Assembly (NCBI GenBank): GCA_008373205.1 | Contig: RQOS01000022.1 | Location: forward strand, 1,995-65,994 | Direction of reading: 5' to 3' | From: SAR202 cluster bacterium | GTDB taxonomy: Bacteria > Chloroflexota > Dehalococcoidia > Lucifugimonadales > Lucifugimonadaceae | Length of the DNA stretch: 64,000 nt | In this document: positions 12,360-41,035 of the stretch, piece by piece | Numbering within the stretch: position 1 is the first letter of the stretch | Layout of the letters: each line of letters opens with the position of its first letter | Notes under the pieces: generated by a model | Databases searched by the model: none | What the model was told of the DNA's origin: nothing | Seen by the model: the letters and a program-made list of their open reading frames with translations, nothing else | Translations under genes and position numbers: made by a program

Positions 12360-12467
12360 ATAAGTTATCTCCTGAAATAATTTTTTTTGTCTACTTATAT
12401 ATTATAATCTTATAATAACTAATATAAAATGATTTCTTAGACTAAATATTAATTTTCAAAATTTATA

Positions 12468-21388: not shown

Positions 21389-21389
21389 T

Positions 21390-22289
21390 ATGAATGAGTT
21401 ACTTTTTCCTAAAAACACTAAAGAAATCAACTATGAAAATTCATTAGAAATTTGTCATATGATAGTTAAGCAAAATTATGAAAATTTTCCTATCATAATG
21501 TTTTTCATTGATAAAGAAAAGATGGATGATTATGCAATCATTTATGCTTTTTCCAGGGGGGTAGACTTTATCGGTGATGATTTTATTGGCGATAAGATAA
21601 AACAATTAGGTGTTTGGGAAAGTGAGCTTAAAAATGCATTTAAAGAAAAGGCTAGCCTACCTGTATTCATAGCTTTGCAAAAAACTATATTGAAGCATGA
21701 TTTACGCATCGAACCATTTTTGAGGCTTATTGAAGCTAATAAAAGAGATCAGGAAAAAAAAGAATATAAAGATGTTAATAGCTTATTAGATTATTGTGAT
21801 TTATCAGCAAATCCTGTTGGCGAAATAGTATTACATATTATGGGTTATAAAGATGAAAAATTGATAAATCTATCAAACTCAATTTGCAGTGCTCTTCAAA
21901 TAACAAATTTTTTACAAGATATAGTAAGAGATAAAAAAATAGGAAGAGTTTATATTCCTTCTGAAATAATGAGAAATCATAAGGTATCTAAAGATATGTT
22001 TGAAGAAAAATATCAACACAATGATGCCTCAAAAAAAAATATTACAAATTTATTAAATGAGATGATTCATATCAATAGAAATTTATATAATTCAGGAAAT
22101 ATACTTCCAAAACTACTAACAAAAAAAGATCGAACTATAATACAAATTTTTATCGATTCAGGGGAGAAAATCTTAAGTAAAATCGAAAAAAGAAAATACA
22201 ATTCATTATTTAATAAACCATCAACTAATAAATTTGAAAAATTTCAAATAATCTTAAAATCGATTCTAAAAAGTACTTTTATAAAATGA
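21390..22289 (+). CDS. squalene/phytoene synthase family protein, HpnC-like
   Basis: NYENFPIIM...YAFSRGVDFIGDDFIGD (ENFP plus DxxxD) and second DxxxD FLQDIVRDKKIGRVYIP. Confidence 0.72.
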   Translation: MNELLFPKNTKEINYENSLEICHMIVKQNYENFPIIMFFIDKEKMDDYAIIYAFSRGVDFIGDDFIGDKIKQLGVWESELKNAFKEKASLPVFIALQKTILKHDLRIEPFLRLIEANKRDQEKKEYKDVNSLLDYCDLSANPVGEIVLHIMGYKDEKLINLSNSICSALQITNFLQDIVRDKKIGRVYIPSEIMRNHKVSKDMFEEKYQHNDASKKNITNLLNEMIHINRNLYNSGNILPKLLTKKDRTIIQIFIDSGEKILSKIEKRKYNSLFNKPSTNKFEKFQIILKSILKSTFIK

Positions 22290-23560
22290 TAAATAATAAT
22301 GAAAAAATAACTATAATTGGTTGTGGAATTTCCGGAATATCTTCTGCTATAAATCTAATTGAAAAAGGGTATGAAGTTAGAATTATTGAGCAAAAAAAAA
22401 CTATTGGAGGTAGAGCAGGATCTATTACAAACAAATATGGAAATATTGATATTGGACAACATATATTTTTAGATTCATACAGAAACTTTTTTAATTTGAT
22501 ATCTAAATTAGATCTGGAAAAATACATAACCAAAAATAAAAACTTAAGAATACCAGTAGTAGATAACAATAGAAAATATTATATTAAATCTAATTTCCCT
22601 ACATATCCTTTTTCAATAATATTTGCGGTATTGGGATATAAAAACATTAGATTATTTGAAAGATTAAAGGTTTTATATGGGTTGATAAAAATAAGATTTA
22701 TAAGTAAAAAGAATAATCCAATACCCTTTTTAAGCTGGCTAAAACAAAACCATCAATCTGACAGTTCAATAATGAAGTTTTGGGATATTATATGTAAGCC
22801 AGCTTTTAACTTAAAATTAGAAAATTTTTCTAATCATCAAGCACATGATTTATTTAAATATATGATCTTTGAGCCTAAAAAAAATATATCAATTTGCTAT
22901 TCAAAAAAACCTTTTTCAGATCTTTTTATGAAACCATTTAAAAAATTTCTAGAAGATAATAATTCGGAGATAATATTTTCTGAAAAAATTCAAAAAATAA
23001 TTAACAATTCTCAAGAGATAAAGATTATGAGTGAAAACAATCTTTACTATGCAGAAAAAGTGATTATAGCAACAGATTTAGAAAATTCACTTAAACTTGT
23101 AAACTTATCTAAGAATAAAATTGTCATTCAAAATTCATCAATAATAAATATAATTTTTTGGTTTGATAAAAAAATTATTGAAGATGATTTTATAGCTTTT
23201 TCAAATTCAGAATTACAATGGATTTTTTCAGAAAATGAGAAAAAAGCAGGAAAATTTTCTCAAAAAATTACTATATCTTTAAGTGATGCAGATCATTTAT
23301 TAGAGAAAAAAAATTCAGAACTTATTAAGAATTTTGAGAATATGATTAGAAAAGAATTAAGTGTTAAGCATGACACTAAATTACTAAGAAGTTTAATAAT
23401 TAGATCTCCAAAGGCAACACAAAGAACGAATGATAGAAAAAATATAACAAATTATGGAAAGAATATATTTTTTGTGGGAGATTGGTTAGTAGATGATCTG
23501 CCAAACACTATGGAAGGCGCTAGCTTATCATCGAAATTATTAGTTGAAGAAAAATTTTAA
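22286..23560 (+). CDS. FAD-dependent amine-oxidase-fold oxidoreductase, HpnE-like
   Basis: ITIIGCGISGISSAINL...EQKKTIGGRAGS dinucleotide fold. C-terminal FFVGDW...PNTMEGASLSS. 4-nt overlap with the HpnC-like gene. Confidence 0.62.
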   Translation: MINNNEKITIIGCGISGISSAINLIEKGYEVRIIEQKKTIGGRAGSITNKYGNIDIGQHIFLDSYRNFFNLISKLDLEKYITKNKNLRIPVVDNNRKYYIKSNFPTYPFSIIFAVLGYKNIRLFERLKVLYGLIKIRFISKKNNPIPFLSWLKQNHQSDSSIMKFWDIICKPAFNLKLENFSNHQAHDLFKYMIFEPKKNISICYSKKPFSDLFMKPFKKFLEDNNSEIIFSEKIQKIINNSQEIKIMSENNLYYAEKVIIATDLENSLKLVNLSKNKIVIQNSSIINIIFWFDKKIIEDDFIAFSNSELQWIFSENEKKAGKFSQKITISLSDADHLLEKKNSELIKNFENMIRKELSVKHDTKLLRSLIIRSPKATQRTNDRKNITNYGKNIFFVGDWLVDDLPNTMEGASLSSKLLVEEKF

Positions 23561-24012
23561 TCTAATATAGCTCCTATAATTTTTTCCTTAGAGATACTTC
23601 CATTTGTTATTGAATCACAATTTTTCCCTAAGGAATTAAAGTTGTCAGAAATACAAAAAAAAGAATTTTTGCTAACAATTAAGCTTAATTTTGATTCTCC
23701 ATAATCTATATCTGACATTAATTCATTTTCAACATAAATTTTACCATCGACTATAGTTACTTTTTCTCCTGAGAAAGCTATCAGTCTTTTGAGATGAAAA
23801 ATTTTATGAATATCACATAAAAATAATATTGGTTGCATTCTTACTAATTTAGAAAAATCAATTTTTTTATCGATTATGTAGGTCTCGTTTTCTAAAAAAT
23901 TTGGATACATGCTGTTTCCTTTAATTTTAATTTTTATATATCTATTTCTAAAAATTAATTTATTTAAAGTTTTTTTAAGCATAGACAACATGAAATTTAA
24001 AAAATTTAGCAT
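23557..24012 (-). CDS. sodX: S26 signal-peptidase-like NiSOD maturation protease
   Basis: GNSMYPNF (Ser motif), KRLIAFSGEKV (Lys motif), SDNFNSLGKNCDS. Divergent from sodN. Confidence 0.7.
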   Translation of the reverse strand: MLNFLNFMLSMLKKTLNKLIFRNRYIKIKIKGNSMYPNFLENETYIIDKKIDFSKLVRMQPILFLCDIHKIFHLKRLIAFSGEKVTIVDGKIYVENELMSDIDYGESKLSLIVSKNSFFCISDNFNSLGKNCDSITNGSISKEKIIGAILD

Positions 24013-24056
24013 ATTATATTTTATAAATATAGAAATAAAAATAACAAGGAGAAAAA

Positions 24057-24482
24057 ATGTTAGCTAAATTCTTAGATAAAATTTTACCTATAACTGAAGT
24101 AACTTGTCACTGTGATATTCCATGTGGAATATATGATCCACGTGATGCCATTCAAGCTGCTCAGACAGTAGTAAGAATGACAGAATTACTTGAAGAATTA
24201 GATTATTCAAATGGCCCTTCAGCTTCACTAGGCAACTCAATGGCTAGATTCGTAGCTGCAAAAGAAGAGCATGCAAAAAAGGCTAAAGATGATATTTTAG
24301 TTATATGGACTGATTACTTCAAACCTGAACATTTAGAAAAATATCCAGATTTACATGAAAAAGTTTGGAATGCTTGTAAACTAGGATCTTTTGTAAAAGT
24401 TAATGTAGATCTTGATAAAGCTAAAGAATTTAAGGCTGCATTAGAAGAAATTGGTGAAATTTTTTGGGAAACTAAAAAATAA
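24057..24482 (+). CDS. sodN: nickel superoxide dismutase precursor
   Basis: Leader MLAKFLDKILPITEVTC followed by the Ni-hook HCDIPCGIYDP. AAGGAGAAAAA SD before the ATG. Confidence 0.9.
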   Translation: MLAKFLDKILPITEVTCHCDIPCGIYDPRDAIQAAQTVVRMTELLEELDYSNGPSASLGNSMARFVAAKEEHAKKAKDDILVIWTDYFKPEHLEKYPDLHEKVWNACKLGSFVKVNVDLDKAKEFKAALEEIGEIFWETKK

Positions 24483-24490
24483 TTAGTTAC

Positions 24491-24524
24491 TTTCTATAGA
24501 TGGAATTATTTCCATCTATAGAAA
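24491..24524. terminator. bidirectional hairpin terminator between sodN and the TauE-like gene
   Basis: Perfect 15-bp arms TTTCTATAGATGGAA (24491-24505) and TTCCATCTATAGAAA (24510-24524) around loop TTAT. T-run and A-run at the outer ends. The TauE-like stop codon (24516-24518) lies inside the 3' arm. Confidence 0.6.
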
Positions 24525-25271
24525 TCTTATGGTCATAAATATAGCTAAAAGTATTAAAATAACTCCAAGTAATTTTCTAAGTTGATCTTGGTTGGCTATT
24601 TGAACAAATTTTGATCCAAAATACATCCCCAAAATAGTTGGAAATACTACACAAAAAATCAATATATAATCAAAATTTCCAGAAAATGAATGCCCTAAAT
24701 ATGCTGAAATTCCAACTAAAACCGATAAAAACAAGTTTATCCCTCCAGCAGTTTTGATATTCATCTTCAAAAAATAAACTAATGCAGGCACTCTAAGTAC
24801 TCCTAAGGCTAAGCCAACTATTCCTCCAAAATATGAGACCACCACTCCCACTAATATTTCTTTAGCAGTACTTTTGTTATCATTTTTTAATTCTTTTGAA
24901 TCAATTTGATAGAAAATCATTACTAATCCTGAAATAATCAGGCAAGCAATAATTATTATTAATAGATAAATTTCTGCTATATTTGAAGCAAAATAACCTC
25001 CTAAAAAAGCTGCCAGCATAGATGGGAATGCAATATTAAGAGTTGATCTTATAGGAACTCTTTTTTGCTTAATTGCTGGGAATAAACCTGCAAGAGAGCC
25101 AAATATGACGGCCAAAAGATTAGTAGAAGCTGCAATTATTGGTTCAACCCCCAAAAAAATTATTAGGGGTAATCTAATCGCTCCTAAGGCGATTCCTAAA
25201 AGTCCTCCCAAAAATCCAATAAGTGAGCATAGTACAAGAAGAACTAAGTATATATATATAGATAGCTCCAT
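24516..25271 (-). CDS. TauE/SafE-family anion exporter (DUF81)
   Basis: 251 aa, about 8 TM. Two internal repeats with Gly-rich helices (FLGGLLGIALGAIRLP and FGGIVGLALGVLRVP). Confidence 0.72.
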   Translation of the reverse strand: MELSIYIYLVLLVLCSLIGFLGGLLGIALGAIRLPLIIFLGVEPIIAASTNLLAVIFGSLAGLFPAIKQKRVPIRSTLNIAFPSMLAAFLGGYFASNIAEIYLLIIIIACLIISGLVMIFYQIDSKELKNDNKSTAKEILVGVVVSYFGGIVGLALGVLRVPALVYFLKMNIKTAGGINLFLSVLVGISAYLGHSFSGNFDYILIFCVVFPTILGMYFGSKFVQIANQDQLRKLLGVILILLAIFMTIRFL

Positions 25272-25277
25272 AAGAAA

Positions 25278-26477
25278 TTAACTCACTAATTGTGGAACGA
25301 CTGCTAATAATACACCTGCAACCGTAGCTGTACCAATTACCCCTGCCACATTAGGACCCATTGCATGCATAAGCAAATAATTATCAGGATCTTCCTTAGC
25401 AGCTTCATTTTGAACAACCCTAGCTGCCATTGGAACAGCAGAAACTCCTGCAGCACCAATCATTGGATTTATAGGTTTCTTTAAGAATATGTTCATTATT
25501 TTTGCTAATAAAATACCAGAAATTGTAGCTAGAATAAATGAAACTAATCCTAGTATAAAAATTGAAATTGTTTCAACTTTAAGGAAAACTTTAGCAGGCA
25601 TTGTTGCCCCCACAGATAATCCTAGAAGGATAATAACTATATTCATTAATTCATTTTGAGCAGTTTTAGCTAATCTATCTACTACCCCAGATTCACGTAG
25701 CAAATTACCAAACATCATTATTGAAATCAAAGGAGATGCATCTGGGACTAAAATACTGACAATTATGATTGTTATTACAGGAAAAATTATCTTGGTCTTC
25801 TTGGATATTTTATTAGATGAATATTCCATTCTAATTTTTCTTTCTTTTTGGGTAGTAAATAATCTAATAATTGGAGGTTGAATAATGGGGACCAAAGCCA
25901 TATAGGAATATGCTGCTACGGCAGTAGCACCAACAATATCTTTCATCTCATAGGAAGATAAGCTTAACCCTATTTCTCTCATTCTTGTAGATATAAATAT
26001 TGTAGTAGGTCCATCAGCTCCTCCAATAATTCCTATTGATGAAGCTTCTAATAATCCAAAATCAAAAAAAGGTGTCAAGCTTATTAGTAAAGCTCCTATC
26101 AAGGCTACAAAAACACCTACTTGAGCAGCTGCACCAAGTAACAATGTTTTAGGATTTGATAAAACTGGTTCAAAATCAGTTAGAGCTCCCATACCTAAAA
26201 ATATTAATAATGGTAAAACATCATTTGACATCCCTATGTTTTGAAAAATCCTAAGAAACCCATCAGGTTCTCCATTGCCACCAATTCTAAGAAGTTCACC
26301 CATAGGTAAATTAGCGAGTAATATTCCAGTAGAAATTGGTACTAATAATAAAGGTTCTTTTTTCTTATAAATTCCAAAATAATAAAGTATCCCGGAAATT
26401 ATCCACATTAAAATCATTCCTGGATTAGATATCAGATCCTCTATTCCTTCTAGAAGTGGTTCAATATATTCAATCAT
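25278..26477 (-). CDS. Na+-translocating decarboxylase beta subunit (OadB/MmdB/GcdB family)
   Basis: 399-aa polytopic protein. EPLLLVPISTGILLANLP, GGADGPT and AAGVSAVPMAARV are characteristic of the family. Confidence 0.85.
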   Translation of the reverse strand: MIEYIEPLLEGIEDLISNPGMILMWIISGILYYFGIYKKKEPLLLVPISTGILLANLPMGELLRIGGNGEPDGFLRIFQNIGMSNDVLPLLIFLGMGALTDFEPVLSNPKTLLLGAAAQVGVFVALIGALLISLTPFFDFGLLEASSIGIIGGADGPTTIFISTRMREIGLSLSSYEMKDIVGATAVAAYSYMALVPIIQPPIIRLFTTQKERKIRMEYSSNKISKKTKIIFPVITIIIVSILVPDASPLISIMMFGNLLRESGVVDRLAKTAQNELMNIVIILLGLSVGATMPAKVFLKVETISIFILGLVSFILATISGILLAKIMNIFLKKPINPMIGAAGVSAVPMAARVVQNEAAKEDPDNYLLMHAMGPNVAGVIGTATVAGVLLAVVPQLVS

Positions 26478-26498
26478 AAAATTTCTTTCGTAAGGATT

Positions 26499-26945
26499 TT
26501 ATTCTATCTCAATCATAACTTGATCATATTGAACACTATCATCAACGTTGACAAGAATATTACTAACTTTGCCGGATAAATTAGAATTTATTGTATTTTC
26601 CATCTTCATTGATTCAATTACCAATAGTGGAGTACCATCAGATACTTCATCGCCTACCTTAACAAGAATCTCTAAAACTTTACCAGGCATCATTGCTTTT
26701 ATTTGCCCAGATTTACTAACATTTACAGACTCTACCGGAGTTTTATTTTCTTGCGCCTCACTAGATTTTATTTTCGATGGTTGAGATTTTGGTTCTTGAT
26801 TAGAAATTATATTAGTTTGGGAAGAAGTGTCCTTTACTTCAACTATTGAACCATTAACATTAACTTGAAATATGCCATTTGATTCATTTAAGATTTCAAC
26901 TTCAAAGTTTTGATTATTTATAGTTAGATTATATTTTTTTGACAC
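26499..26945 (-). CDS. biotin carboxyl carrier protein (MmdC/GcdC-type biotinyl subunit)
   Basis: C-terminal biotinyl domain with PGKVLEILVKVGDEV...LLVIESMKMEN (the biotinylated Lys in the MKM context). Ser/Pro/Gln-rich linker. Confidence 0.82.
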   Translation of the reverse strand: MSKKYNLTINNQNFEVEILNESNGIFQVNVNGSIVEVKDTSSQTNIISNQEPKSQPSKIKSSEAQENKTPVESVNVSKSGQIKAMMPGKVLEILVKVGDEVSDGTPLLVIESMKMENTINSNLSGKVSNILVNVDDSVQYDQVMIEIE

Positions 26946-26948
26946 TTT

Positions 26949-27338
26949 TTAATTCCTTCGATTTCTTTTCAAGAGCATCCTTGATCTGTTAACTGTAATC
27001 CATGAAGAATCAGCTACTTCGTTAGCAATATTGTTAGATCCTAAAAGGTTATCTTTCTTATATAAACCTACTGCAACCGCTGCCGCAACATCATTTAGAT
27101 TATTTTTCTCTTTTTTGTAAATACCAACAGCCATAGCAGCTGCAATATTAGATAATTTGTTGAAATCATCTAACTTAGGTTTGCTATTTTGTGAGTTAGC
27201 ATGATCGTTATCGACAATCACACTATTTTCAAATAGGGTAATTACTTTTATAGCTAATAACAAAACTACAAGTACCAAAAATACTACAAGTACACCAACT
27301 CCTGATAGGTAAAGGCCGTCAATTAAAACATTATTCAC
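26949..27338 (-). CDS. OadG-like small membrane anchor subunit
   Basis: N-terminal TM GLYLSGVGVLVVFLVLVVLLLAIKVI typical of the OadG/MmdD family. Internal repeat AAAMAVGIYKK / AAAVAVGLYKK. GTG start at 27338. Confidence 0.6.
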   Translation of the reverse strand: MNNVLIDGLYLSGVGVLVVFLVLVVLLLAIKVITLFENSVIVDNDHANSQNSKPKLDDFNKLSNIAAAMAVGIYKKEKNNLNDVAAAVAVGLYKKDNLLGSNNIANEVADSSWITVNRSRMLLKRNRRN

Positions 27339-27341
27339 AAA

Positions 27342-28379
27342 TCATTCCTTAAATACATTAATTAGTTGTTCATTGGCTATGGATATTATACTATCATTTT
27401 CTGAAATTTGAACTGAAATATGATTATTTTTTATTTTGTGGTTATATAAAAAATAATCTTCCAATTTAATAGAATTAAATTTTAAATCTATTTTTTTGCG
27501 AAAATTATTTGATTCACTTAAGTCTATTCCTTTAAATCTTATCGTAGAGTTAATCTTAGTTTGTGATAGTTTAGGAATTTCAAAATTTGGTATAGAGCCT
27601 AATTTTAAGTATCCTCCAGTTGTTTGAGAATCATTTAATAAAATTATTGGTTGTCCACTTGGGGGCAATTGAACTGTTCCTAAAGATACACCTGAAGATA
27701 TCTCATCTTTAAGTTTATGAGATAAGTTATCATTACCCTTTAATCTTATTCCTTGCCTTGATGCTTCAGCAGATATTGTATACTGATTTGATTCTAAAAT
27801 ATTAATGAAATCAGGAAACTTATTAAGAGTAACTTCATCATAAATTATAGAGATATCATTGGCAGATTTTATATATTTTTCAAAGAAAGAGGAATTAATT
27901 AATTTTTGAAAATTTGAGTTAGGTTTTTTCATATGTAGAATATCTCCTATGTTAACTCTTAGATCATTTGTAATACTTGATGGTTGATGAAAAGAAACAG
28001 AATTCATAATATTATTTACTTTAAAGCCACCGGAAATTGAAAAATAAAATATATTACCATTTTTATTTTCAGGAATATAAAGAGTGTCATATTTTTTTAT
28101 CTTGATGGAAGAATTAATAGATATTTGATCATTATTTATCTTAAAAATACCTGTTGGACCTGAAACTGCAATAGAAACATCTTCCATAAATTCACAACTG
28201 AATCCACCTCCAACGATTTCTATAGCTCCTTCATTTTTTTTATTACCACATAAGAAATTTGAAATTATGAATGAAAACTTGTCTAAACATCCTGATTGAG
28301 ACACCCCAATAGATTTTTTCCCAAATCTTCCTAAATCTTGAAAACTAGATAGTGTAGCTGTATTTAATATCTTAATCAT
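27342..28379 (-). CDS. pxpC: 5-oxoprolinase subunit C / KipA-type carboxyltransferase-fold protein
   Basis: ATLSSFQDLGRFGKKSIGVSQSGCLD and GTVQLPPSGQPIILLNDSQTTGGYLKLG match the KipA ('allophanate hydrolase subunit 2') family. Confidence 0.85.
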   Translation of the reverse strand: MIKILNTATLSSFQDLGRFGKKSIGVSQSGCLDKFSFIISNFLCGNKKNEGAIEIVGGGFSCEFMEDVSIAVSGPTGIFKINNDQISINSSIKIKKYDTLYIPENKNGNIFYFSISGGFKVNNIMNSVSFHQPSSITNDLRVNIGDILHMKKPNSNFQKLINSSFFEKYIKSANDISIIYDEVTLNKFPDFINILESNQYTISAEASRQGIRLKGNDNLSHKLKDEISSGVSLGTVQLPPSGQPIILLNDSQTTGGYLKLGSIPNFEIPKLSQTKINSTIRFKGIDLSESNNFRKKIDLKFNSIKLEDYFLYNHKIKNNHISVQISENDSIISIANEQLINVFKE

Positions 28380-29040
28380 TTTGAATCTTAAATTTTATAT
28401 AAGAGCCACTAATGATTAGATTAGGGGGATTTTTTTTTGAATCAAACAATTTTAAGTTTGTACGACCAATTATGTTCCAGCCTCCAGGTGAGCTAAATGG
28501 ATAAATTCCTGTTTGATCCCCTGCTATTCCAACAGAGCCTTCAGGTACAGCTAATCTTGGTTCATCTAACCTTGGAAAGGAAATTCTCTTATCAAGGCCT
28601 CCTAAATATGGAAACCCTGGCATAAATCCAATCATATGAACCCTATATTTTTGAGATGAATGAATCTGAATAATTTTTTTTTCAGTAATATTTAGAGCTT
28701 TAGACATTCTTTTTAGATCAGGACCAAATTCACCACCATATTTCACAGGAATTTCAATGATTTTATAATGTTTTTTTTCATTATCGGAAGAGTCAAATTC
28801 AGAATTTATTAAATTTATTTTTTCCTTAATATTTTCATATAAGATTTTATTCGGATCATAGTCAATAATTATTGAATTATAAGTAGGATATATATCTAAT
28901 ATTGAAGAATATTCAGAAAATCCTCTAACCAAGGATTCTAAAAATTTATGTACTAAAATATTAATATCTTCATCTATTTTGTCACCAAATTTTATAATTG
29001 CAGTTGAGTCTCCATGATAAAAGATTTTAGGGTTACTCAT
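28372..29040 (-). CDS. pxpB: 5-oxoprolinase subunit B / KipI-type protein
   Basis: IPVKYGGEFGPDL, YRVHMIGFMPGFPYLGGLD and VPEGSVGIAGDQTGIYPFSSPGGWNIIGRT match the KipI ('allophanate hydrolase subunit 1') family. Confidence 0.85.
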   Translation of the reverse strand: MSNPKIFYHGDSTAIIKFGDKIDEDINILVHKFLESLVRGFSEYSSILDIYPTYNSIIIDYDPNKILYENIKEKINLINSEFDSSDNEKKHYKIIEIPVKYGGEFGPDLKRMSKALNITEKKIIQIHSSQKYRVHMIGFMPGFPYLGGLDKRISFPRLDEPRLAVPEGSVGIAGDQTGIYPFSSPGGWNIIGRTNLKLFDSKKNPPNLIISGSYIKFKIQND

Positions 29041-29804
29041 ACTAATATGTCTGACATAGACTTTATACCAATATTGTTTCTTTTGAAAGATTCTTGAATT
29101 TCACTTGCAATCTCTACAGCACCTTTAGTATCACCATGAAGACAAATAGAATCAAAATCTATTGAAATATCTTCACCTTCAAAAGACTTAACTTTACCAG
29201 TTTTGACTAAATCAATTGTCCTATTTACTATTTTTTTTGTATTATCAATGACCGAACCTTTCATCGATCTGGGAGCTAAAGATCCATCATTCATGAACTC
29301 TCTATCTGCATATGTTTCTCTTATATATTTAACATTGTTTTCTTGAGCAAGATTTTCCCAAATGGATCCTGCTAAAACCACATGAATCAAATCTTCGCTT
29401 ATGGATTTTATGGAATTTATTACTGATAACGCAACATTTTCATCCTTAACTGCTTTATTGTACAAAGCACCATGTGGTTTAACATGCTGAATATTTTCAA
29501 TTCCAATAAAGCCCATTAATGCCCCAACTTGGTATTTGATAATATTTTCTATTTCTGTAGGATCAAGATTCATATCACGTCTACCAAATCCAGCTAAATC
29601 AGGATACGAAGGATGCGCACCAATCGAAACACCCATTTCTAATGATAATTTTATTGTATGACTCATCCAGTTTGGGTCACCAGCATGAAAGCCTGTGGCT
29701 ATATTTGCAGAAGAAATATACCTAACAATTTCCTCATCGAATCCTAGTTTATAACTACCAAAAGACTCTCCGATATCTGCATTAATATCTACAAATTTAT
29801 CCAT
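29037..29804 (-). CDS. pxpA: 5-oxoprolinase subunit A (LamB/YcsF family)
   Basis: DINADIGESFG, SSANIATGFHAGDP, IGAHPSYPD, HVKPHGALYN and ICLHGDT align closely with E. coli YbgL/PxpA as I remember it. Confidence 0.9.
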   Translation of the reverse strand: MDKFVDINADIGESFGSYKLGFDEEIVRYISSANIATGFHAGDPNWMSHTIKLSLEMGVSIGAHPSYPDLAGFGRRDMNLDPTEIENIIKYQVGALMGFIGIENIQHVKPHGALYNKAVKDENVALSVINSIKSISEDLIHVVLAGSIWENLAQENNVKYIRETYADREFMNDGSLAPRSMKGSVIDNTKKIVNRTIDLVKTGKVKSFEGEDISIDFDSICLHGDTKGAVEIASEIQESFKRNNIGIKSMSDILV

Positions 29805-29807
29805 ATT

Positions 29808-30866
29808 TTATATTATTATTTTTTGTCCTGTACTAAAAGAATCGTATATAGCATCCGTGAATTTCATATACTTAACTCCATCAGTAAATGAAGTATGAGT
29901 AATTAATTCTTCACGTCTAATTGCGTTAATAAATTCTTCTTCTACTCTCCATCCACCTACTTCATTATCAGGTATTTTTATTTGTTCTAATTCTTTTTGC
30001 CCTTTTTCTGCACCTAGAAGTACTAAGTTTGGAGCTCCTGCATCAGCTGTTGTTTCTGTCTTAACAACTAATGTTCCTTTTGTACCATGTATCCACATCT
30101 CAGATTCAGGAGCCATACCTGATACCATAGTGAACTGAAGATTAGCTGTACCTCCAGCTATCATTTCACAAAGAACATCAAGATGATCTGGAATATCTGT
30201 GAAAACATAATTTCCTGATTCATCAACTCTAGGATTATTAATTGTTTGAGCATTCGCAGTTACAGATTTTGCTGGTCCTACCCACCTCATAATAGCCTCG
30301 TACCATATTCCCATTTGCATAATATTATTACCAGATAAATCTCTATTATTTCTCCAATGAAATTCCTCATTTTCTTTAGGGAAATCATTTCCTGCAGTTA
30401 CCATTCCTCTTAGGTTTATTAAGTCACCTATATAACCTGATGAAATTAATCTTTTTATTGTTTTATCTATTGGTAAAGTATGTGGCGCAGGAACAATTTG
30501 AGAAATCAAATTAGGATACATTTGAGAAACTTCCAGCATCTCTTGAGCTTCATCAGCGTTCATACACATTCTGGCTTCACATAGTACATGCTTTCCTGCC
30601 TCTAGAGCCTCAATAGTCAATCTTTTATGAAGGTATGGCCATGTTCCTATAACTATGGCATCTAATGAATTATCATCAACTACGCTTAGCCAATTATCAT
30701 AATAATTTTTTATTTCAAATTGTGATGCTACTTCACTTGAGGACTTAATAGATCTATTTGCAACCGAAACTATTTCAACTCCATCTATTTTTTGTAAAAG
30801 CGGTATATGTTTTAATGTTGTATTCCCACCAGCACCTATTATTCCAACTCTAATATTTTCGCTCAT
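29808..30866 (-). CDS. Gfo/Idh/MocA-family oxidoreductase
   Basis: N-terminal Rossmann segment RVGIIGAGGNTTLKHIP, conserved CEARM segment after beta-5, C-terminal alpha/beta domain. 3-nt gap to pxpA. Confidence 0.8.
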   Translation of the reverse strand: MSENIRVGIIGAGGNTTLKHIPLLQKIDGVEIVSVANRSIKSSSEVASQFEIKNYYDNWLSVVDDNSLDAIVIGTWPYLHKRLTIEALEAGKHVLCEARMCMNADEAQEMLEVSQMYPNLISQIVPAPHTLPIDKTIKRLISSGYIGDLINLRGMVTAGNDFPKENEEFHWRNNRDLSGNNIMQMGIWYEAIMRWVGPAKSVTANAQTINNPRVDESGNYVFTDIPDHLDVLCEMIAGGTANLQFTMVSGMAPESEMWIHGTKGTLVVKTETTADAGAPNLVLLGAEKGQKELEQIKIPDNEVGGWRVEEEFINAIRREELITHTSFTDGVKYMKFTDAIYDSFSTGQKIII

Positions 30867-30981
30867 TTTATATCCTCATTATTTTGTTTATTTTTTTTTA
30901 GTAAGATTTTTTTAGTTCATTAATATAAAATTCATATAAAATCCATATAGTGAATTAGATATTATTAGGAATATATTATTT

Positions 30982-31323
30982 ATGGAACCAAAAAGTGTAA
31001 ATAGATTAAGTGATGGGTTAGAAATAATTTGGGGAAATGATGTTTCATGTATATACCCATATAAATATCTTAGACTTCAATGTGCATGTGCAAATTGCGT
31101 AGAAGAATTAACTGGTAAAAAATTATTAAAAGTTTCTGAAATCCAAGAAGATATAATTGTTGTAGAATATCTTATTGTGGGGAAATATGCATTGCAATTT
31201 CTATGGTCTGATGCCCATGAAACAGGAATATATCCATATAACAGCTTACTTGGTTATGCTCTAAACGATGAAGCTGTTGTTTGTAGTGATAGAGATAAGC
31301 TTTTGGCAGACTTAAATATCTAG
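30982..31323 (+). CDS. DUF971 (gamma-butyrobetaine-hydroxylase-N-terminal-like) protein
   Basis: YLRLQCACANCVEELTGKK and WSDAHETGIYPY are typical of DUF971. Confidence 0.7.
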   Translation: MEPKSVNRLSDGLEIIWGNDVSCIYPYKYLRLQCACANCVEELTGKKLLKVSEIQEDIIVVEYLIVGKYALQFLWSDAHETGIYPYNSLLGYALNDEAVVCSDRDKLLADLNI

Positions 31324-32370
31324 AATATTTTTTACAGTCTGAACTACATCATCACTATCTGGCATAAACTCATCCTCTAATCCTTTGCTATAGGGAACAG
31401 GTGTATGAGGTGCTGTAACTCTCTTAACTGGAGCATCTAAATAGTCAAATGCCTTGTCAGATACAATTGCTGCAATTTCGCTAGCCATACTTGCTCTAGG
31501 GTTATCTTCATCAACGATAACTATTCTGTTTGTCTTAGACACCGATTCAATTATTATTTGTTCGTCTAATGGTGATAAGGACATTAAGTCTATAACCTCA
31601 GCATCAATATCTAACTTTTCAAGTTTTTCAGCTGCTTCTTTACAAACTACAGATGTATAGCTCATTCCTACAAGAGTTACATCATTACCCTTTCTAAGAT
31701 ATCTACCTTTACCTAACTCTATTCGATAATCTTCATCTGGAACAAATCCTGTCATATTTATCAATTTTTTATCATTAACAACAAACACAGGATCATCATC
31801 TCTAATAGCAGCTGATAACAAGCCTTTCACTGAATAGGGATCTGAGGGAGTTACGACCTTTAATCCAGGTATATGAGCTAATATTGAATAAAAGGCACTT
31901 GAATGCTGCGCAGCGTGACCAGTTCCACTTCCAGATCTTGCAAAAAGAGTAAGAGGGACTTTAGTTTGACCACCAAACATATATCTACTTTTTGCAGCAT
32001 TAGAAAGCAGCTGATCAAAGGCTACAGTTGTGAAATCAAAATACATTAAATCTACAACAGGTCTAAGTCCCGTTAAGGCAGCTCCTATAGCGGCACCAAC
32101 AAATCCTGCTTCAGAAATTGGCGCATCCATGATCCTTTCTACACCAAAATCTTGAACTAAACCTTTTGTTGCTGCAAAAGGTCCACCCCAAGCATCTAAA
32201 GGCTCTTTAGTTTTTTTATCAAAACCTCCTGAAATGTCCTCTCCAATAATGAGTACATTTTTATCATATTCTAACTCACTTCTAAGAGTGTTATTAAAAG
32301 CATCTCTATATCTCATTTCCTGTCCATTGACTTCTAAACCTGGACCAATATTACTATTATTAACTTCCAT
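31312..32370 (-). CDS. 2-oxoacid (pyruvate/acetoin-type) dehydrogenase E1 beta subunit
   Basis: Transketolase-like Pyr and C-terminal domains (IGEDISGG...PISEAGFVGAAIGAA...HAAQHSSAFYS). Immediately downstream of E1 alpha. Confidence 0.85.
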   Translation of the reverse strand: MEVNNSNIGPGLEVNGQEMRYRDAFNNTLRSELEYDKNVLIIGEDISGGFDKKTKEPLDAWGGPFAATKGLVQDFGVERIMDAPISEAGFVGAAIGAALTGLRPVVDLMYFDFTTVAFDQLLSNAAKSRYMFGGQTKVPLTLFARSGSGTGHAAQHSSAFYSILAHIPGLKVVTPSDPYSVKGLLSAAIRDDDPVFVVNDKKLINMTGFVPDEDYRIELGKGRYLRKGNDVTLVGMSYTSVVCKEAAEKLEKLDIDAEVIDLMSLSPLDEQIIIESVSKTNRIVIVDEDNPRASMASEIAAIVSDKAFDYLDAPVKRVTAPHTPVPYSKGLEDEFMPDSDDVVQTVKNILDI

Positions 32371-32385
32371 AATATAACTCCTCGA

Positions 32386-33381
32386 CTATCTTAAACCTTT
32401 AAGGTCATTTGAATAATTTACATAAACATCTTCGTACAATACTTCAGAAGGAGGCAATGGACTTGAAAGTCCAAATTCAACCGCCTCTTCAATTTCTTTT
32501 TGTATTTCACTTTTTAATTTGTTCAATTTACTCTTTGTAAATATTTTTTGCTGAACTACTTTTTCCTCAAAATTTTTAATACAATCTTTCTTGTGCCATT
32601 CTTCTTCTTCTTCTGTAGTTCTATATTTTTCAGTTTGATCTGCATGAAAATGGCCATGATATCTGTAAGTTTTTAGTTCTAGTAATGTTGGGCCCTTACC
32701 TTCTCTAGCTCGCTTGACCGCTTCTTCTGCGGCCTCATAAACTTGAAAAACATCCATTCCATCAACTATCACACCTGGAATATTATATGAAGCAGCTCTG
32801 TCAGCTATGTCTTCAACTGAAACTGCATACCATGAAGGAGTTGCTTCAGCATATTGATTATTTTCACAAGCAAAGATCACAGGAAGTTTCCAAATAGATG
32901 CTAAATTCATTGACTCGTGTAATACACCCTGGGAAGAAGCTCCATCTCCAAAAAAAGCAACTCCTATCGAATCTTTTTCCTTACCCTGATACTTGGCAGT
33001 AAGCGCTGCCCCTACAGCTAAAGGAATAGATGCACCAACTATTGCATTTGCACCCAGCATACCTTTTGAAAAGTCTGCTATGTGCATAGATCCACCTTTA
33101 CCTTTACAGTTTCCCGTATATTTCCCCATTATTTCAGCCATCATTTTGTCAGTTTCTAACCCTTTTGCAATACAATGTCCATGGCCTCTGTGAGTAGAGC
33201 CTATCCAATCATTATCAGACAAATGAGCACATATACCTGTAGGAACGGCTTCTTGTCCATCTGAAGGATGAGTAACTCCCATAGAATTGCCTTTATAAGT
33301 TTGTTCGAGCATTGCTTCTTCAAAAAATCTTATCCTACACATTGTTTGGTACATCCAAATTAATTTATCTTCTTTTATCAA
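32386..33381 (-). CDS. 2-oxoacid dehydrogenase E1 alpha subunit (TPP-dependent)
   Basis: TPP-binding motif FFGDGASSQGVLHESMN...FACENNQYA. HRGHGHC segment. Confidence 0.85.
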   Translation of the reverse strand: MIKEDKLIWMYQTMCRIRFFEEAMLEQTYKGNSMGVTHPSDGQEAVPTGICAHLSDNDWIGSTHRGHGHCIAKGLETDKMMAEIMGKYTGNCKGKGGSMHIADFSKGMLGANAIVGASIPLAVGAALTAKYQGKEKDSIGVAFFGDGASSQGVLHESMNLASIWKLPVIFACENNQYAEATPSWYAVSVEDIADRAASYNIPGVIVDGMDVFQVYEAAEEAVKRAREGKGPTLLELKTYRYHGHFHADQTEKYRTTEEEEEWHKKDCIKNFEEKVVQQKIFTKSKLNKLKSEIQKEIEEAVEFGLSSPLPPSEVLYEDVYVNYSNDLKGLR

Positions 33382-33896: not shown

Positions 33897-34607
33897 TTGA
33901 AGGAGCTTGATCGTTCCACTCCAATTTGGGTTAAGGTTCTAGTTCCTCTTGTGGGGCTTGGAGGCCTTACAACATTGGCAATAATATCTATATTATTAGC
34001 AGGGCTATTTAATGCTTGGCTCGGACAACCTTTACCTGTTTTAGGATTTGAACAAACATTTGATCAACCAATCAATTTTCCACACACTAAACACGCTGCA
34101 CCTGTTTCAGAAGGCGGGCTAGGAATGGATTGTACTTATTGCCATAGAACAGTTGCTAAGGCATCATCAGCTCATGTTCCAGCAGTAGAACTTTGTGCAA
34201 GCTGTCATAGAGCAGTTGGAAGCCCTGAAAGTGAAGACCTGAAAAAATTAAGAATGTCCTCAGGTATATATGAAGATGAAAATACAAGTCAGGTAGTTGT
34301 GGATCCAGAAATGGCTTCTCCTATTAACTGGAGAAGAGTACACAGAATGCCAGATCATGTTAGATTTGTGCATTCAGCACATATTAATTACTTAACCAAT
34401 AACCCATCTGCTATTGGTAATGTCCCAGAATATTTAGATTTATCAGGAGAAGAAAAAGTCCCTGCTTCACAAGTTTGTTCTACTTGTCATGGAGATGTAG
34501 CAAACATGGAGAAAGTTTATCAGGTCGAACCCCTAAAAATGGGGCAGTGTGTTAACTGTCATAGAAAAAACGGTGGTCCAACAGATTGTGCCGCATGTCA
34601 TCACTAA
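33897..34607 (+). CDS. actA: ACIII pentahaem cytochrome c subunit ActA
   Basis: Five CxxCH motifs (CTYCH, CASCH, CSTCH, CVNCH, CAACH) after an N-terminal membrane anchor. Track start is TTG 33897; in-frame ATC 33873 has the better SD. Confidence 0.85.
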   Translation: MKELDRSTPIWVKVLVPLVGLGGLTTLAIISILLAGLFNAWLGQPLPVLGFEQTFDQPINFPHTKHAAPVSEGGLGMDCTYCHRTVAKASSAHVPAVELCASCHRAVGSPESEDLKKLRMSSGIYEDENTSQVVVDPEMASPINWRRVHRMPDHVRFVHSAHINYLTNNPSAIGNVPEYLDLSGEEKVPASQVCSTCHGDVANMEKVYQVEPLKMGQCVNCHRKNGGPTDCAACHH

Positions 34608-34621
34608 GTAAGAGGTAATTT

Positions 34622-36949: not shown

Positions 36950-36967
36950 TAAAATAAGGAAGAAATA

Positions 36968-39098: not shown

Positions 39099-39110
39099 TT
39101 AGAGGAAAAA

Positions 39111-40514: not shown

Positions 40515-40516
40515 TT

Positions 40517-41020: not shown

Positions 41021-41035
41021 AAAGGAAATATTATT

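What the first reader, a model, noticed from the sequence alone, without database searches (positions are those of the whole stretch)
24516..30866. pxpABC (LamB/KipI/KipA) operon carries a Na+-pump decarboxylase membrane module (OadG-BCCP-OadB) but no canonical carboxyltransferase or biotin carboxylase
Seen: eight minus-strand genes are packed with junctions of -8 to +21 nt. They are a Gfo/Idh/MocA oxidoreductase (29808-30866), PxpA/LamB (29037-29804), PxpB/KipI (28372-29040) and PxpC/KipA (27342-28379). These are followed by an OadG-like anchor (26949-27338; internal repeat AAAMAVGIYKK / AAAVAVGLYKK) and a 148-aa biotinyl carrier with the ESMKME site (26499-26945). The last two genes are the polytopic OadB/MmdB/GcdB-type subunit (25278-26477) and a TauE/SafE exporter (24516-25271). 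Nothing in the window resembles an OadA/MmdA/GcdA carboxyltransferase or an ATP-grasp biotin carboxylase. Established: characterised Na+-translocating decarboxylases need a soluble carboxyltransferase to load biotin before the beta subunit decarboxylates carboxybiotin. PxpB/PxpC (the old 'allophanate hydrolase subunit 1/2') are free-standing homologues of the carboxyltransferase domain of urea carboxylase. PxpABC is known as an ATP-dependent 5-oxoprolinase. Na+ decarboxylases are reversible in vitro. Inference: PxpBC may be the missing carboxyltransferase. That would make a new class of biotin enzyme coupling an N-carboxy-amide or lactam-type substrate to the Na+ gradient. It could work as decarboxylation-driven Na+ export. 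Alternatively, Na+-motive force could drive carboxybiotin formation, replacing an ATP-dependent carboxylase in lactam activation before PxpA ring opening. The co-operonic oxidoreductase and exporter argue for a dedicated pathway rather than chance adjacency.
Basis: partly seen in the sequence, partly recalled or inferred. Interest (0 to 1): 0.85.

Follow-up and report, generated by a model that had tools for sequence, protein, structure and literature searches.

The report
Sodium-pump biotin module wired to PxpABC
A marine SAR202 bacterium, several relatives and one unrelated anaerobe put the lactam-opening PxpABC genes where a sodium-pumping biotin decarboxylase normally keeps its carboxyl-transfer subunit, which points to an undescribed enzyme that links amide or lactam chemistry to the sodium gradient.

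Summary
Eight tightly packed minus-strand genes encode GFO oxidoreductase, PxpA, PxpB, PxpC, OadG-like anchor, BCCP, OadB and TauE. The 64-kb window holds no canonical carboxyltransferase and no biotin carboxylase.

The linkage is not chance. I found pxpABC beside BCCP and OadB in four gene orders:
- colinear in SAR202
- divergent in a second SAR202 type
- in the cultured Halanaerobiales species Natroniella sulfidigena
- in a sediment contig

The OadB and PxpC partners are polyphyletic. None of these loci has a canonical alpha subunit. By contrast, 30 of 34 ordinary OadB loci do. PxpC sits in the alpha slot of an alpha-delta-gamma-beta operon.

Natural PxpC::BCCP and PxpB::PxpC::BCCP fusions exist in Acidobacteriota. 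A 2026 cryo-EM study shows a PxpC homologue gripping BCCP-bound biotin.

Best reading: PxpBC is the carboxyltransferase of a membrane biotin complex. I favour sodium-motive force making carboxybiotin to activate a lactam for PxpA hydrolysis, in place of ATP. Direction and substrate are unproven.

The main rival is an alpha subunit encoded elsewhere. The closest relative, L001, has BCCP-OadB without pxp. I found no prior description. I class it as a new variant of known kinds, of high interest.

The parts
29808..30866 (-). Gfo/Idh/MocA oxidoreductase, first gene of the packed run. It is an accessory gene: present in the low-GC SAR202 type I loci and near the type II locus L091, and absent from L003/L004, Natroniella and L137.
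   Evidence: Pfam GFO_IDH_MocA plus C-terminal domains. tblastn conservation. L091 gene list.
29037..29804 (-). PxpA / LamB-YcsF family hydrolase, the proposed ring-opening step.
   Evidence: PF03746, 299.7 bits. NF003814, 321.5 bits, above the cut-off of 226. Co-linear in every pxp-oad locus that is not cut off upstream.
28372..29040 (-). PxpB / KipI-type CT subdomains C-D.
   Evidence: PF02682, 230.7 bits. TIGR00370, 208.7, above 145.55. Partial match to urea carboxylase TIGR02712.
27342..28379 (-). PxpC / KipA-type CT subdomains A-B. It sits in the alpha slot directly upstream of the OadG-like gene. It is diverged, at 26-31% identity to its orthologues in sister SAR202 loci.
   Evidence: PF02626, 188.6 bits. 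NF045499, 151, below 500. Matches E. coli YbgK 5DUD at residues 1-295 and MSMEG_0435 at 2-282. Alignment A3.
27345..27482 (-). C-terminal tail of PxpC of about 45 aa, absent from E. coli and M. smegmatis PxpC. It resembles the N-terminal association-domain-type hairpin of the neighbouring BCCP.
   Evidence: hhalign of the tail profile against the BCCP-head profile gives Prob 95%, E 4e-8. The window's own tail-head pair is only z=1.6. A single-hairpin version also occurs on PxpC that is not linked to OadB.
26949..27338 (-). OadG/MmdD-like membrane anchor: one TM helix plus a cytoplasmic Ala-rich amphipathic helix motif. The motif is duplicated here, at nt 27054-27143.
   Evidence: TIGR01195, 36.6 against 36.05. 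Orthologues carry one copy of the motif. The role of the gamma tail in binding the alpha association domain is described in PMC7274780.
26499..26945 (-). Free-standing biotin carboxyl carrier protein: N-terminal hairpin domain, linker, and biotinyl domain with ESMKME.
   Evidence: PF00364, 64.6 bits. N-terminal part aligns to OadA/PycB positions of about 456-590. Hairpin HMM.
25278..26477 (-). OadB/MmdB/GcdB-type carboxybiotin decarboxylase and Na+ channel subunit, apparently catalytically intact.
   Evidence: PF03977, 473.8 bits. TIGR01109, 464 bits. Alignment to Salmonella OadB 6IVA keeps E40, D203, Y229, R304, N311, N373, G377, S382, R389 and N412. PMC7274780 names E40, D203, R304, N311, S382 and N412 as essential; the importance of Y229, N373, G377 and R389 is recalled from older Klebsiella OadB mutagenesis, not from a paper I read here.
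24516..25271 (-). TauE/SafE-family anion exporter. It lies downstream of OadB in all SAR202 type I loci, and also in L001, which lacks pxp.
   Evidence: PF01925, 141.3 bits. tblastn.
31312..33381 (-). E1 beta (31312-32370) and E1 alpha (32386-33381) of a 2-oxoacid dehydrogenase. This is a variable neighbour: directly upstream of GFO on the same strand in L002 and probably L008 (by ORF sizes only), and separated here by a plus-strand ORF.
   Evidence: NCBIfam and Pfam. ORF maps.

Best explanation
PxpB and PxpC form the carboxyltransferase, the alpha-subunit equivalent, of a membrane-bound biotin enzyme. Its other parts are the co-encoded BCCP, the OadG-like anchor and the Na+-conducting OadB. 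PxpA is the attached hydrolase.

Proposed cycle (inferred):
1. Na+ flows in through OadB and drives carboxylation of BCCP-biotin from CO2. This is the documented reverse reaction of these pumps.
2. PxpBC transfers the carboxyl group to the amide nitrogen of a lactam. This is the chemistry of the homologous urea-carboxylase CT domain. The lactam would be 5-oxoproline in Natroniella and possibly another lactam in SAR202.
3. PxpA hydrolyses the activated ring.
4. The N-carboxy product loses CO2.

The net result is lactam hydrolysis paid for by about 2 Na+ instead of ATP.

What is shown: gene content, intact catalytic residues in OadB, conserved and repeatedly re-invented gene linkage, absence of any other carboxyltransferase nearby, and PxpC-BCCP fusions elsewhere.

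What is inferred: physical complex formation (about 0.7-0.75 likely), direction of coupling, substrate and stoichiometry.
For: (1) Linkage in four gene orders:
- SAR202 type I: pxpA-B-C-oadG-BCCP-oadB in the window and in L002-L006 and L008.
- SAR202 type II: divergent oadG-oadB-BCCP <-> pxpA-B-C in L088, L091 and L159.
- Natroniella sulfidigena: oadG-like-BCCP-oadB-pxpA-B-C.
- Sediment contig L137: pxpC-BCCP-oadG-oadB.

(2) The OadB and PxpC partners are polyphyletic, so the modules were joined repeatedly.

(3) A canonical alpha lies within 10 kb in 30 of 34 full-flank ordinary OadB loci. It is present in none of the pxp-linked loci and nowhere in the window.

(4) Operon order matches mmd-type alpha-delta-gamma-beta, with PxpC in the alpha position.

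(5) PxpC::BCCP and PxpB::PxpC::BCCP fusions are common in Acidobacteriota.

(6) pxpABC sits next to birA and an OadA-like gene in L134 and L148.

(7) Cryo-EM shows MSMEG_0435 (a PxpC homologue) binding the biotin of a BCCP domain, positioned for carboxyl transfer (PMC13012033).

(8) PxpC carries a C-terminal hairpin of the type otherwise specific to BCCP N-termini and OadA-type alphas. The hairpin HMM hits 38 BCCP, 1 alpha and 1 other protein among 981 background ORFs. It hits 20 of 127 PxpC, all at the extreme C-terminus. The SAR202 tail and BCCP head match by hhalign at E 4e-8. The gamma tail binds association domains at 1:2 (PMC7274780).

(9) All essential OadB residues are conserved.

(10) No biotin carboxylase is present in the window or in any of 172 loci.

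(11) Reversal of these pumps is documented (Dimroth & Hilpert 1984, cited in PMC7274780).

(12) From my own knowledge: 5-oxoproline hydrolysis is endergonic and canonically ATP-driven. My estimate is that a marine sodium-motive force of about 20-24 kJ per mol Na+, times two, is comparable to ATP hydrolysis.
Against: - No biochemistry exists for any of these loci.
- L001 has the OadB most similar to the window's (73%). It has BCCP-OadB-TauE with no pxp within 10 kb. It lies next to an ATP synthase operon and prpBCD.
- L009-L011 also have BCCP-OadB alone. The module can therefore exist without adjacent pxp.
- Canonical PxpABC was reported to work with ATP and without added biotin components. This is Niehaus 2017, known to me only from its abstract; the paper was not retrievable.
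- The hairpin tail also occurs on PxpC with no OadB nearby.
- The window's own tail-head similarity is weak (z=1.6), and there is no within-cluster covariation (p=0.14).
- All characterised family members run physiologically in the decarboxylation direction.
- PxpC here scores far below the PxpC equivalog cut-off, so the substrate is uncertain.
Confidence: 0.4

Rival explanations
1. Same complex, opposite direction. PxpBC takes a carboxyl group from an N-carboxylated (allophanate-like) or other activated carboxyl donor. PxpA would make or consume that donor. PxpBC loads biotin, and OadB decarboxylates carboxybiotin and exports Na+. This would be a new substrate class of decarboxylation-driven sodium pump.
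For: All characterised members of the family work this way (PMC7274780). All linkage, fusion and alpha-slot evidence fits equally well. Natroniella is an anaerobe with Na+-based energetics, where such pumps are typical (my knowledge).
Against: No plausible abundant carboxyl donor for a urea-carboxylase-type CT is evident. The known Pxp reaction, 5-oxoproline hydrolysis, needs energy rather than yielding it. 5-oxoproline's own carboxylate is not chemically transferable to biotin. SAR202 are aerobes (my knowledge). This argument is inference only.
Confidence: 0.25
2. Two separate enzymes in one operon. PxpABC is an ordinary ATP-dependent 5-oxoprolinase or lactamase. OadG-BCCP-OadB is the membrane part of a conventional methylmalonyl-CoA, glutaconyl-CoA or oxaloacetate decarboxylase whose alpha subunit is encoded elsewhere. 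Adjacency would reflect co-regulation only.
For: 4 of 34 ordinary OadB loci with full flanks lack an alpha within 10 kb. L001 and L009-L011 carry BCCP-OadB with neither alpha nor pxp. In L001 the neighbours are methylcitrate-cycle genes. From memory, Acidaminococcus gcdA is encoded apart from gcdDCB. NCBI names this OadB a glutaconyl-CoA decarboxylase beta subunit. Whole genomes could not be searched.
Against: This reading needs the same coincidence four times, with unrelated OadB and PxpC lineages and different gene orders. Genes overlap or are 3 nt apart in the window. It does not explain PxpC::BCCP fusions, the biotin-binding PxpC homologue (PMC13012033) or the hairpin tail.
Confidence: 0.2
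3. PxpBC uses carboxybiotin made by another enzyme. The source would be a housekeeping ATP-dependent biotin carboxylase acting in trans, or a second carboxyltransferase acting as a transcarboxylase. OadB would only tether the carboxybiotin pool or bleed it off.
For: Acidobacterial pxpA-pxpB-pxpC::BCCP loci have neither BC nor OadB within 10 kb, so a trans-acting source must exist there. Mycobacterial PxpBC docks on the AccA3 BCCP (PMC13012033). L134 and L148 pair pxpABC with an OadA/PycB-like CT. The window has fatty-acid synthesis genes (PlsX; FabG-like seen by eye only), so an AccC very probably exists elsewhere in the genome.
Against: It gives no reason for OadB and OadG, with all catalytic residues intact, to be co-inherited with pxp in four arrangements.
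Confidence: 0.1

Closest known systems
Na+-translocating decarboxylases: oxaloacetate (OadGAB), methylmalonyl-CoA (MmdABCDE), glutaconyl-CoA (GcdABCD) and malonate decarboxylase
   Same: A beta subunit with all essential residues. An OadG/delta-type anchor with a cytoplasmic amphipathic helix. A free BCCP with an N-terminal hairpin, as in MmdC/GcdC. Operon order alpha-delta-gamma-beta.
   Different: The alpha subunit is replaced. Instead of a TIM-barrel (OadA) or crotonase-fold (MmdA/GcdA) carboxyltransferase, the slot holds the two-protein urea-carboxylase-type CT PxpB/PxpC plus a LamB-family hydrolase. The host is an aerobic marine oligotroph, and the direction may be reversed.
PxpABC prokaryotic 5-oxoprolinase (E. 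coli YbgJKL, B. subtilis YcsF/KipI/KipA)
   Same: The same three protein families in one operon. PxpA and PxpB pass NCBIfam cut-offs. PxpC aligns to YbgK over residues 1-295.
   Different: PxpC is far below the equivalog cut-off (151 against 500). The operon continues into OadG-BCCP-OadB. It lacks the typical neighbours Nramp and D-Glu cyclase, which were seen in L083 and L084. The canonical enzyme is described as ATP-dependent without biotin components.
Urea carboxylase / urea amidolyase (BC-CT-BCCP plus allophanate hydrolase)
   Same: CT subdomains A-D and a BCCP. The same logic: N-carboxylate an amide, then hydrolyse it.
   Different: There is no biotin carboxylase domain or gene. The CT is split into two proteins in B-then-A order. 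The hydrolase is LamB-type, not an amidase-signature allophanate hydrolase. The proposed carboxybiotin source is a Na+ channel subunit.
[quoted passage not shown]
   Same: A free-standing PxpC/PxpB pair engages the biotin of a BCCP domain belonging to another biotin enzyme.
   Different: There the BCCP belongs to an ATP-dependent BC-BCCP subunit, and the authors read the interaction as regulatory. No OadB is present, no activity was found, and the genes are not clustered with the carboxylase.
Uncharacterised '5-oxoprolinase/urea amidolyase family' fusions PxpC::BCCP and PxpB::PxpC::BCCP (Acidobacteriota)
   Same: A Pxp-type CT coupled to a biotinyl domain without a cis BC. pxpA and pxpB lie upstream.
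   Different: The BCCP is fused rather than free. OadB and OadG are absent. The linker lacks the hairpin.

Membership tests
Na+-translocating decarboxylase family (OAD/MMD/GCD/MAD) | Polytopic beta subunit (OAD_beta) with the Na+-binding and catalytic residues | tested here: met
   PF03977, 473.8 bits. TIGR01109, 464 bits. E40, D203, R304, N311, S382 and N412 are conserved in the alignment to 6IVA; these are the residues named essential in PMC7274780. Y229, N373, G377 and R389, whose role I recall from older mutagenesis work, are conserved too.
Na+-translocating decarboxylase family (OAD/MMD/GCD/MAD) | Small gamma/delta anchor: N-terminal TM helix plus a cytoplasmic helix that binds the alpha subunit | tested here: met
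   TIGR01195, 36.6 against a cut-off of 36.05, which is marginal. Pfam OAD_gamma, 18.4, is below the gathering score of 27. The TM helix and Ala-rich helix motif are conserved in orthologues, in Natroniella and in L088, L091 and L137.
Na+-translocating decarboxylase family (OAD/MMD/GCD/MAD) | Biotinyl carrier (domain or subunit) with the MKM lysine | tested here: met
   PF00364, 64.6 bits. ESMKME is present.
Na+-translocating decarboxylase family (OAD/MMD/GCD/MAD) | Alpha carboxyltransferase of OadA (HMGL-like plus PYC_OADA) or Carboxyl_trans (MmdA/GcdA) type. The malonate type (MadC/D) was not separately modelled. | tested here: not met
   No HMM hit in the six-frame window or in any pxp-linked locus. 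Whole genomes were not searchable.
Na+-translocating decarboxylase family (OAD/MMD/GCD/MAD) | Substrate decarboxylation coupled to Na+ export | not testable with these tools
   Needs proteoliposome assays.
PxpABC 5-oxoprolinase | PxpA (LamB/YcsF) and PxpB above the curated family cut-offs | tested here: met
   NF003814, 321.5, above 226. TIGR00370, 208.7, above 145.55.
PxpABC 5-oxoprolinase | PxpC above the curated equivalog cut-off | tested here: not met
   NF045499, 151.2 against 500. TIGR00724, 193.3 against 230.2. Only the Pfam CT_A_B domain passes.
PxpABC 5-oxoprolinase | ATP-dependent hydrolysis of 5-oxoproline by the three proteins alone | not testable with these tools
   Enzyme assay needed.
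Urea carboxylase / urea amidolyase | ATP-grasp biotin carboxylase domain | tested here: not met
   The AccC probe gives no hit in the window or in 172 loci. The probe was validated by Pfam. All window ORFs of 380 aa or more were assigned to other families or have no Pfam hit.
Urea carboxylase / urea amidolyase | CT subdomains A-B and C-D plus a BCCP | tested here: met
   PF02626, PF02682 and PF00364, as three separate proteins. There are matches to TIGR02712 and to the urea carboxylase structure 3VA7.
Urea carboxylase / urea amidolyase | Residues needed for urea carboxylation (Fan et al. 2012) | not tested
   The paper was not retrievable, and I could not recall the residue list reliably.

The most novel reading that the evidence does not exclude
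This is the first enzyme in which a Na+-decarboxylase beta subunit runs physiologically in reverse. Sodium-motive force makes carboxybiotin. A urea-carboxylase-type transferase (PxpBC) uses it to N-carboxylate a lactam so that PxpA can open it. The result is an ATP-free, sodium-driven amidolyase.

By extension, the whole PxpBC family would be biotin-dependent carboxyltransferases that draw carboxybiotin from interchangeable sources: a fused BC, a trans-acting BC, an OadA-like CT, or OadB.
Probability: 0.35. Interest if true: 0.9.

Novelty: new variant of a known kind. Interest (0 to 1): 0.78.

Why it matters
If PxpBC really is the carboxyltransferase of an OadB complex, the sodium-pump decarboxylase family gains a new class. 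Its transferase would have a third, unrelated fold and a nitrogen-centred substrate.

If the complex runs in reverse, it would be the first natural case of ion-gradient-driven biotin carboxylation. That would be a cheaper energy quantum than ATP for energy-starved cells, such as deep-ocean SAR202 and soda-lake anaerobes.

It would also bear on how the very widespread PxpABC 5-oxoprolinase couples to energy. I do not know of an identified ATP site, and a homologue was recently seen holding BCCP-biotin.

The hypothesis is directly testable, because Natroniella sulfidigena is a cultured isolate.

Tried and rejected
- **Promoter and terminator scan of 24000-31500.** Counts equal the shuffled expectation. 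The two 'terminators' fall inside the Ala-rich OadG repeat. Uninformative.
- **Tail as an OadB-specific docking tag.** Rejected as a specific marker. Single-hairpin tails occur on PxpC in loci without OadB (L082-L086, L090, L092).
- **Covariation of PxpC tail with its own BCCP head.** Not significant (p=0.14). The window's own pair gives z=1.6.
- **The 446-aa ORF at 55631-56971 as accC.** Rejected. It is a glycosyltransferase.
- **Reading a substrate from the SAR202 neighbours** (E1 alpha/beta, DHDPS-family, ALS-like TPP enzyme, cupin, TauE). NCBIfam gives only sub-threshold generic hits, so no pathway could be assigned.
- **Retrieval of Niehaus 2017 and Fan 2012.** Failed. The PxpABC reconstitution details and the urea-carboxylase active-site residues could not be checked.
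- **Whole-genome search for alpha subunits or accC.** Not possible.
- **Structure prediction.** Not run. The tool is single-chain and returns no contacts, so it could not test complex formation.

Full report
**1. The observation**

The region 24516-30866 carries eight minus-strand ORFs exactly as described. Junctions are +3, -4, -8, +3, +3, +21 and +6 nt. Pfam and NCBIfam assign them as follows:
- Gfo/Idh/MocA oxidoreductase
- PxpA (LamB_YcsF; NF003814, 321.5 bits against a cut-off of 226)
- PxpB (CT_C_D; TIGR00370, 208.7 against 145.55)
- a PxpC-like CT_A_B protein, well below the PxpC equivalog cut-off (151 against 500)
- a marginal OadG-family anchor (TIGR01195, 36.6 against 36.05)
- a 148-aa BCCP with ESMKME
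- OAD_beta (474 bits)
- TauE

The OadG repeat is real, at residues 66-76 and 85-95. The window has about 30% GC. Its OadB is identical to proteins that NCBI names as SAR202/Dehalococcoidia.

The negative part of the observation also holds. HMMs built from 24 OadA-type and 22 Carboxyl_trans-type alpha subunits find nothing in the six-frame window. An AccC probe finds no biotin carboxylase, and Pfam shows the probe to be a genuine one. Every other ORF of 380 aa or more belongs to an unrelated family or has no Pfam hit.

**2. The module looks functional**

Aligned to Salmonella OadB (6IVA), the window protein keeps E40, D203, R304, N311, S382 and N412. The 2020 cryo-EM and mutagenesis study names these residues as essential (PMC7274780). 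It also keeps Y229, N373, G377 and R389, whose importance I recall from older mutagenesis work.

PxpC aligns with E. coli YbgK (5DUD) and M. smegmatis MSMEG_0435 (3MML, 9YX5). It aligns more weakly with the urea carboxylase CT domain (3VA7).

**3. The linkage is conserved and was assembled more than once**

A scan of one genome per GTDB species with OadB returned 80 loci. Six Dehalococcoidia species (L002-L006, L008) carry the co-linear pxpA-pxpB-pxpC-(oadG)-BCCP-oadB. Their OadB is 65-71% identical to the window's, their PxpC only 28-31%, and their GC ranges from 30% to 60%. L007 is cut off just upstream.

A PxpC-profile search and context look-ups added other arrangements:
- The cultured Halanaerobiales species Natroniella sulfidigena has oadG-like-BCCP-oadB-pxpA-pxpB-pxpC, next to three M42 peptidases and CstA.
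- A second SAR202 type has the two halves divergent: oadG-oadB-BCCP <-> pxpA-B-C (L088, L091, L159).
- A 47%-GC sediment contig has pxpC-BCCP-oadG-oadB (L137).

In NJ trees the pxp-linked OadBs fall in three separate places, and so do the PxpCs. The association was therefore built repeatedly from unrelated modules. That is hard to reconcile with chance.

**4. PxpBC sits where the alpha subunit should be**

Among loci L012-L080, from other phyla, 49 of 69 carry a canonical alpha. Among those with full 10-kb flanks the figure is 30 of 34, and none carries pxp. In the Dehalococcoidia clade none carries a canonical alpha and six carry pxpABC.

Bacteroidales mmd-type loci read alpha-OadG-BCCP-OadB. 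The window reads PxpABC-OadG-BCCP-OadB.

**5. Independent links between PxpC and biotin**

- In a metagenome scan of 80 PxpC loci, six encode PxpC::BCCP fusions (CT_A_B plus Biotin_lipoyl, EAMKMQ). Pfam confirms two of them directly; the other four rest on my own HMM hits falling in a single reading frame.
- A search with one fusion shows it is common in Acidobacteriota. It occurs alongside PxpB::PxpC::BCCP triple fusions, which amount to urea carboxylase minus its BC domain.
- One such locus is pxpA-pxpB-pxpC::BCCP-MFS, with no BC or OadB within 10 kb.
- Two loci place birA and an OadA/PycB-like gene right after pxpC.
- No biotin carboxylase is present in any of the 172 loci.

**6. A possible docking element**

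SAR202 PxpCs have a C-terminal tail of about 45 aa that E. coli and M. smegmatis PxpC lack. Its profile matches the profile of the neighbouring BCCP N-termini (hhalign Prob 95%, E 4e-8).

An HMM of the N-terminal hairpin of 30 canonical BCCP subunits is highly specific. Among 981 background ORFs it hits 38 BCCPs, one OadA-type alpha and one other protein. It hits 20 of 127 PxpCs, always at the extreme C-terminus, including Natroniella's.

In OAD the gamma tail binds the alpha association domain at a 1:2 ratio (PMC7274780). One hairpin from PxpC and one from BCCP per OadG helix would fit that ratio.

There are caveats. The single-hairpin tail also occurs on PxpC with no OadB nearby. The window's own tail-head similarity is weak (z=1.6). 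There is no within-cluster covariation (p=0.14). I treat this element as supportive, not decisive.

**7. Mechanism**

I put the probability that PxpBC works with this BCCP/OadB/OadG as its carboxyltransferase at about 0.7-0.75.

For direction, I favour sodium-motive-force-driven carboxybiotin formation, for four reasons:
- The reaction is documented in vitro (Dimroth & Hilpert 1984).
- N-carboxylation of a lactam amide is the known chemistry of this CT family (urea to allophanate).
- Ring hydrolysis by PxpA and loss of CO2 would follow.
- The known Pxp reaction needs an energy input rather than providing one, and no obvious carboxyl donor exists for the opposite direction.

My own estimate is that two Na+ at marine gradients deliver roughly the energy of one ATP hydrolysis.

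The peptidase and CstA context in Natroniella suggests 5-oxoproline as the substrate there. In SAR202 the divergent PxpC and the variable neighbours leave the substrate open. Those neighbours are GFO, E1 alpha/beta, DHDPS-family, an ALS-like TPP enzyme, a cupin, TauE, and in type II loci RraA-like, ADH and ApbA.

**8. Counter-evidence and rivals**

L001 has the OadB closest to the window's (73%). It has BCCP-OadB-TauE without pxp, beside an F-ATPase operon and prpBCD. L009-L011 also have BCCP-OadB alone. An alpha encoded elsewhere therefore cannot be excluded, and whole genomes could not be searched.

The rivals are:
- the same complex running as a decarboxylation-driven pump (0.25)
- two independent enzymes sharing an operon (0.2)
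- carboxybiotin supplied in trans, with OadB in an accessory role (0.1)

**9. Novelty**

Full-text searches found no description of this linkage. The terms covered PxpA/B/C with biotin, allophanate-hydrolase subunits with decarboxylase beta, SAR202 with sodium decarboxylase, and KipA/KipI with biotin carboxylase. One SAR11 paper mentions biotin-enzyme genes and a PxpA-like gene in the same gene cluster (PMC10308929).

I class the finding as a new variant of known kinds. It is either a Na+-decarboxylase family with a new alpha type, or PxpABC with a new coupling. It is of high interest and directly testable in a cultured organism.

Noticed in passing
L114, L129, L132, L154, L157, L168, L173; proteins P0303-P0413: Natural PxpC::BCCP fusions (about 430 aa) and PxpB::PxpC::BCCP fusions (about 660-675 aa; urea carboxylase without its BC domain) are common in Acidobacteriota/Vicinamibacterales. 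In the locus examined (L173), pxpA and pxpB lie upstream and no BC or OadB lies within 10 kb. Function is uncharacterised.
   Followed up: partly
L134:273-4724 and L148:8370-14041: pxpA-pxpB-pxpC is followed directly by a biotin protein ligase (birA) and an OadA/PycB-like carboxyltransferase with BCCP. This is another recurrent pairing of Pxp with biotin enzymes, and a possible transcarboxylase.
   Followed up: partly
L001:1600-19319: This is the OadB closest to the window's that lacks pxp. BCCP-OadB is divergent from a full F-type ATP synthase operon that includes an AtpI-like gene. It is followed by TauE, prpB-prpC-prpD (methylcitrate cycle) and the same 560-aa TPP enzyme seen in SAR202 type I loci.
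   Followed up: partly
L082-L086, L090, L092 (PxpC proteins P0127, P0136, P0142, P0160, P0164, P0170, P0173): Many PxpC of about 340 aa from Bacillota-type and other loci end in a BCCP-type hairpin (for example KHYNIKVNGEKYDVELKE), although no OadB or BCCP is nearby. Several of these loci carry hydrogenase genes, so the hosts may be anaerobes. Its role is unexplained.
   Followed up: partly
window 27054-27143 (-): The Ala-rich helix motif of the OadG-like protein is duplicated only in the window's protein. The orthologues I compared from other SAR202 loci, Natroniella, L088, L091 and L137 have one copy. The two 'terminator-like' hits of the scan fall inside this repeat and are artefacts.
   Followed up: partly
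window 23557-24482: A nickel superoxide dismutase (sodN, 168.8 bits) lies next to a divergently oriented S26-family peptidase, probably its maturation protease. Both sit immediately downstream of the operon.
   Followed up: no
window 30982-31323 (+): A 113-aa ORF with weak similarity to the N-terminal domain of gamma-butyrobetaine dioxygenase (DUF971-like) sits antisense between E1 beta and the GFO gene. It interrupts an arrangement that is contiguous in L002 and, by ORF sizes, in L008.
   Followed up: no
window 33897-41557 (+): An alternative-complex-III-like cluster: a multihaem cytochrome, a molybdopterin-family subunit, an Fe-S subunit and NrfD-like membrane subunits. It is followed by cytochrome c maturation genes, including CcmF at 41945-43894.
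   Followed up: no
window 19706-23560 (+): Polyprenyl synthase, an unannotated 219-aa ORF, a squalene/phytoene synthase and an amine-oxidase-family flavoprotein lie in a row. The arrangement resembles Hpn-type squalene or carotenoid genes.
   Followed up: no
L091:1156-4217 and L159:4473-6209, 11125-12816: The SAR202 type II pxp-oad loci examined in detail (L091, L159) share RraA-like (aldolase / oxaloacetate decarboxylase family), Zn-ADH, ApbA-like reductase and a VTT/DedA membrane protein. L088 shares only the VTT/DedA gene and instead has a beta-lactamase-family hydrolase and an MFS transporter. Only L091 also has a GFO oxidoreductase. These may hint at the substrate.
   Followed up: no
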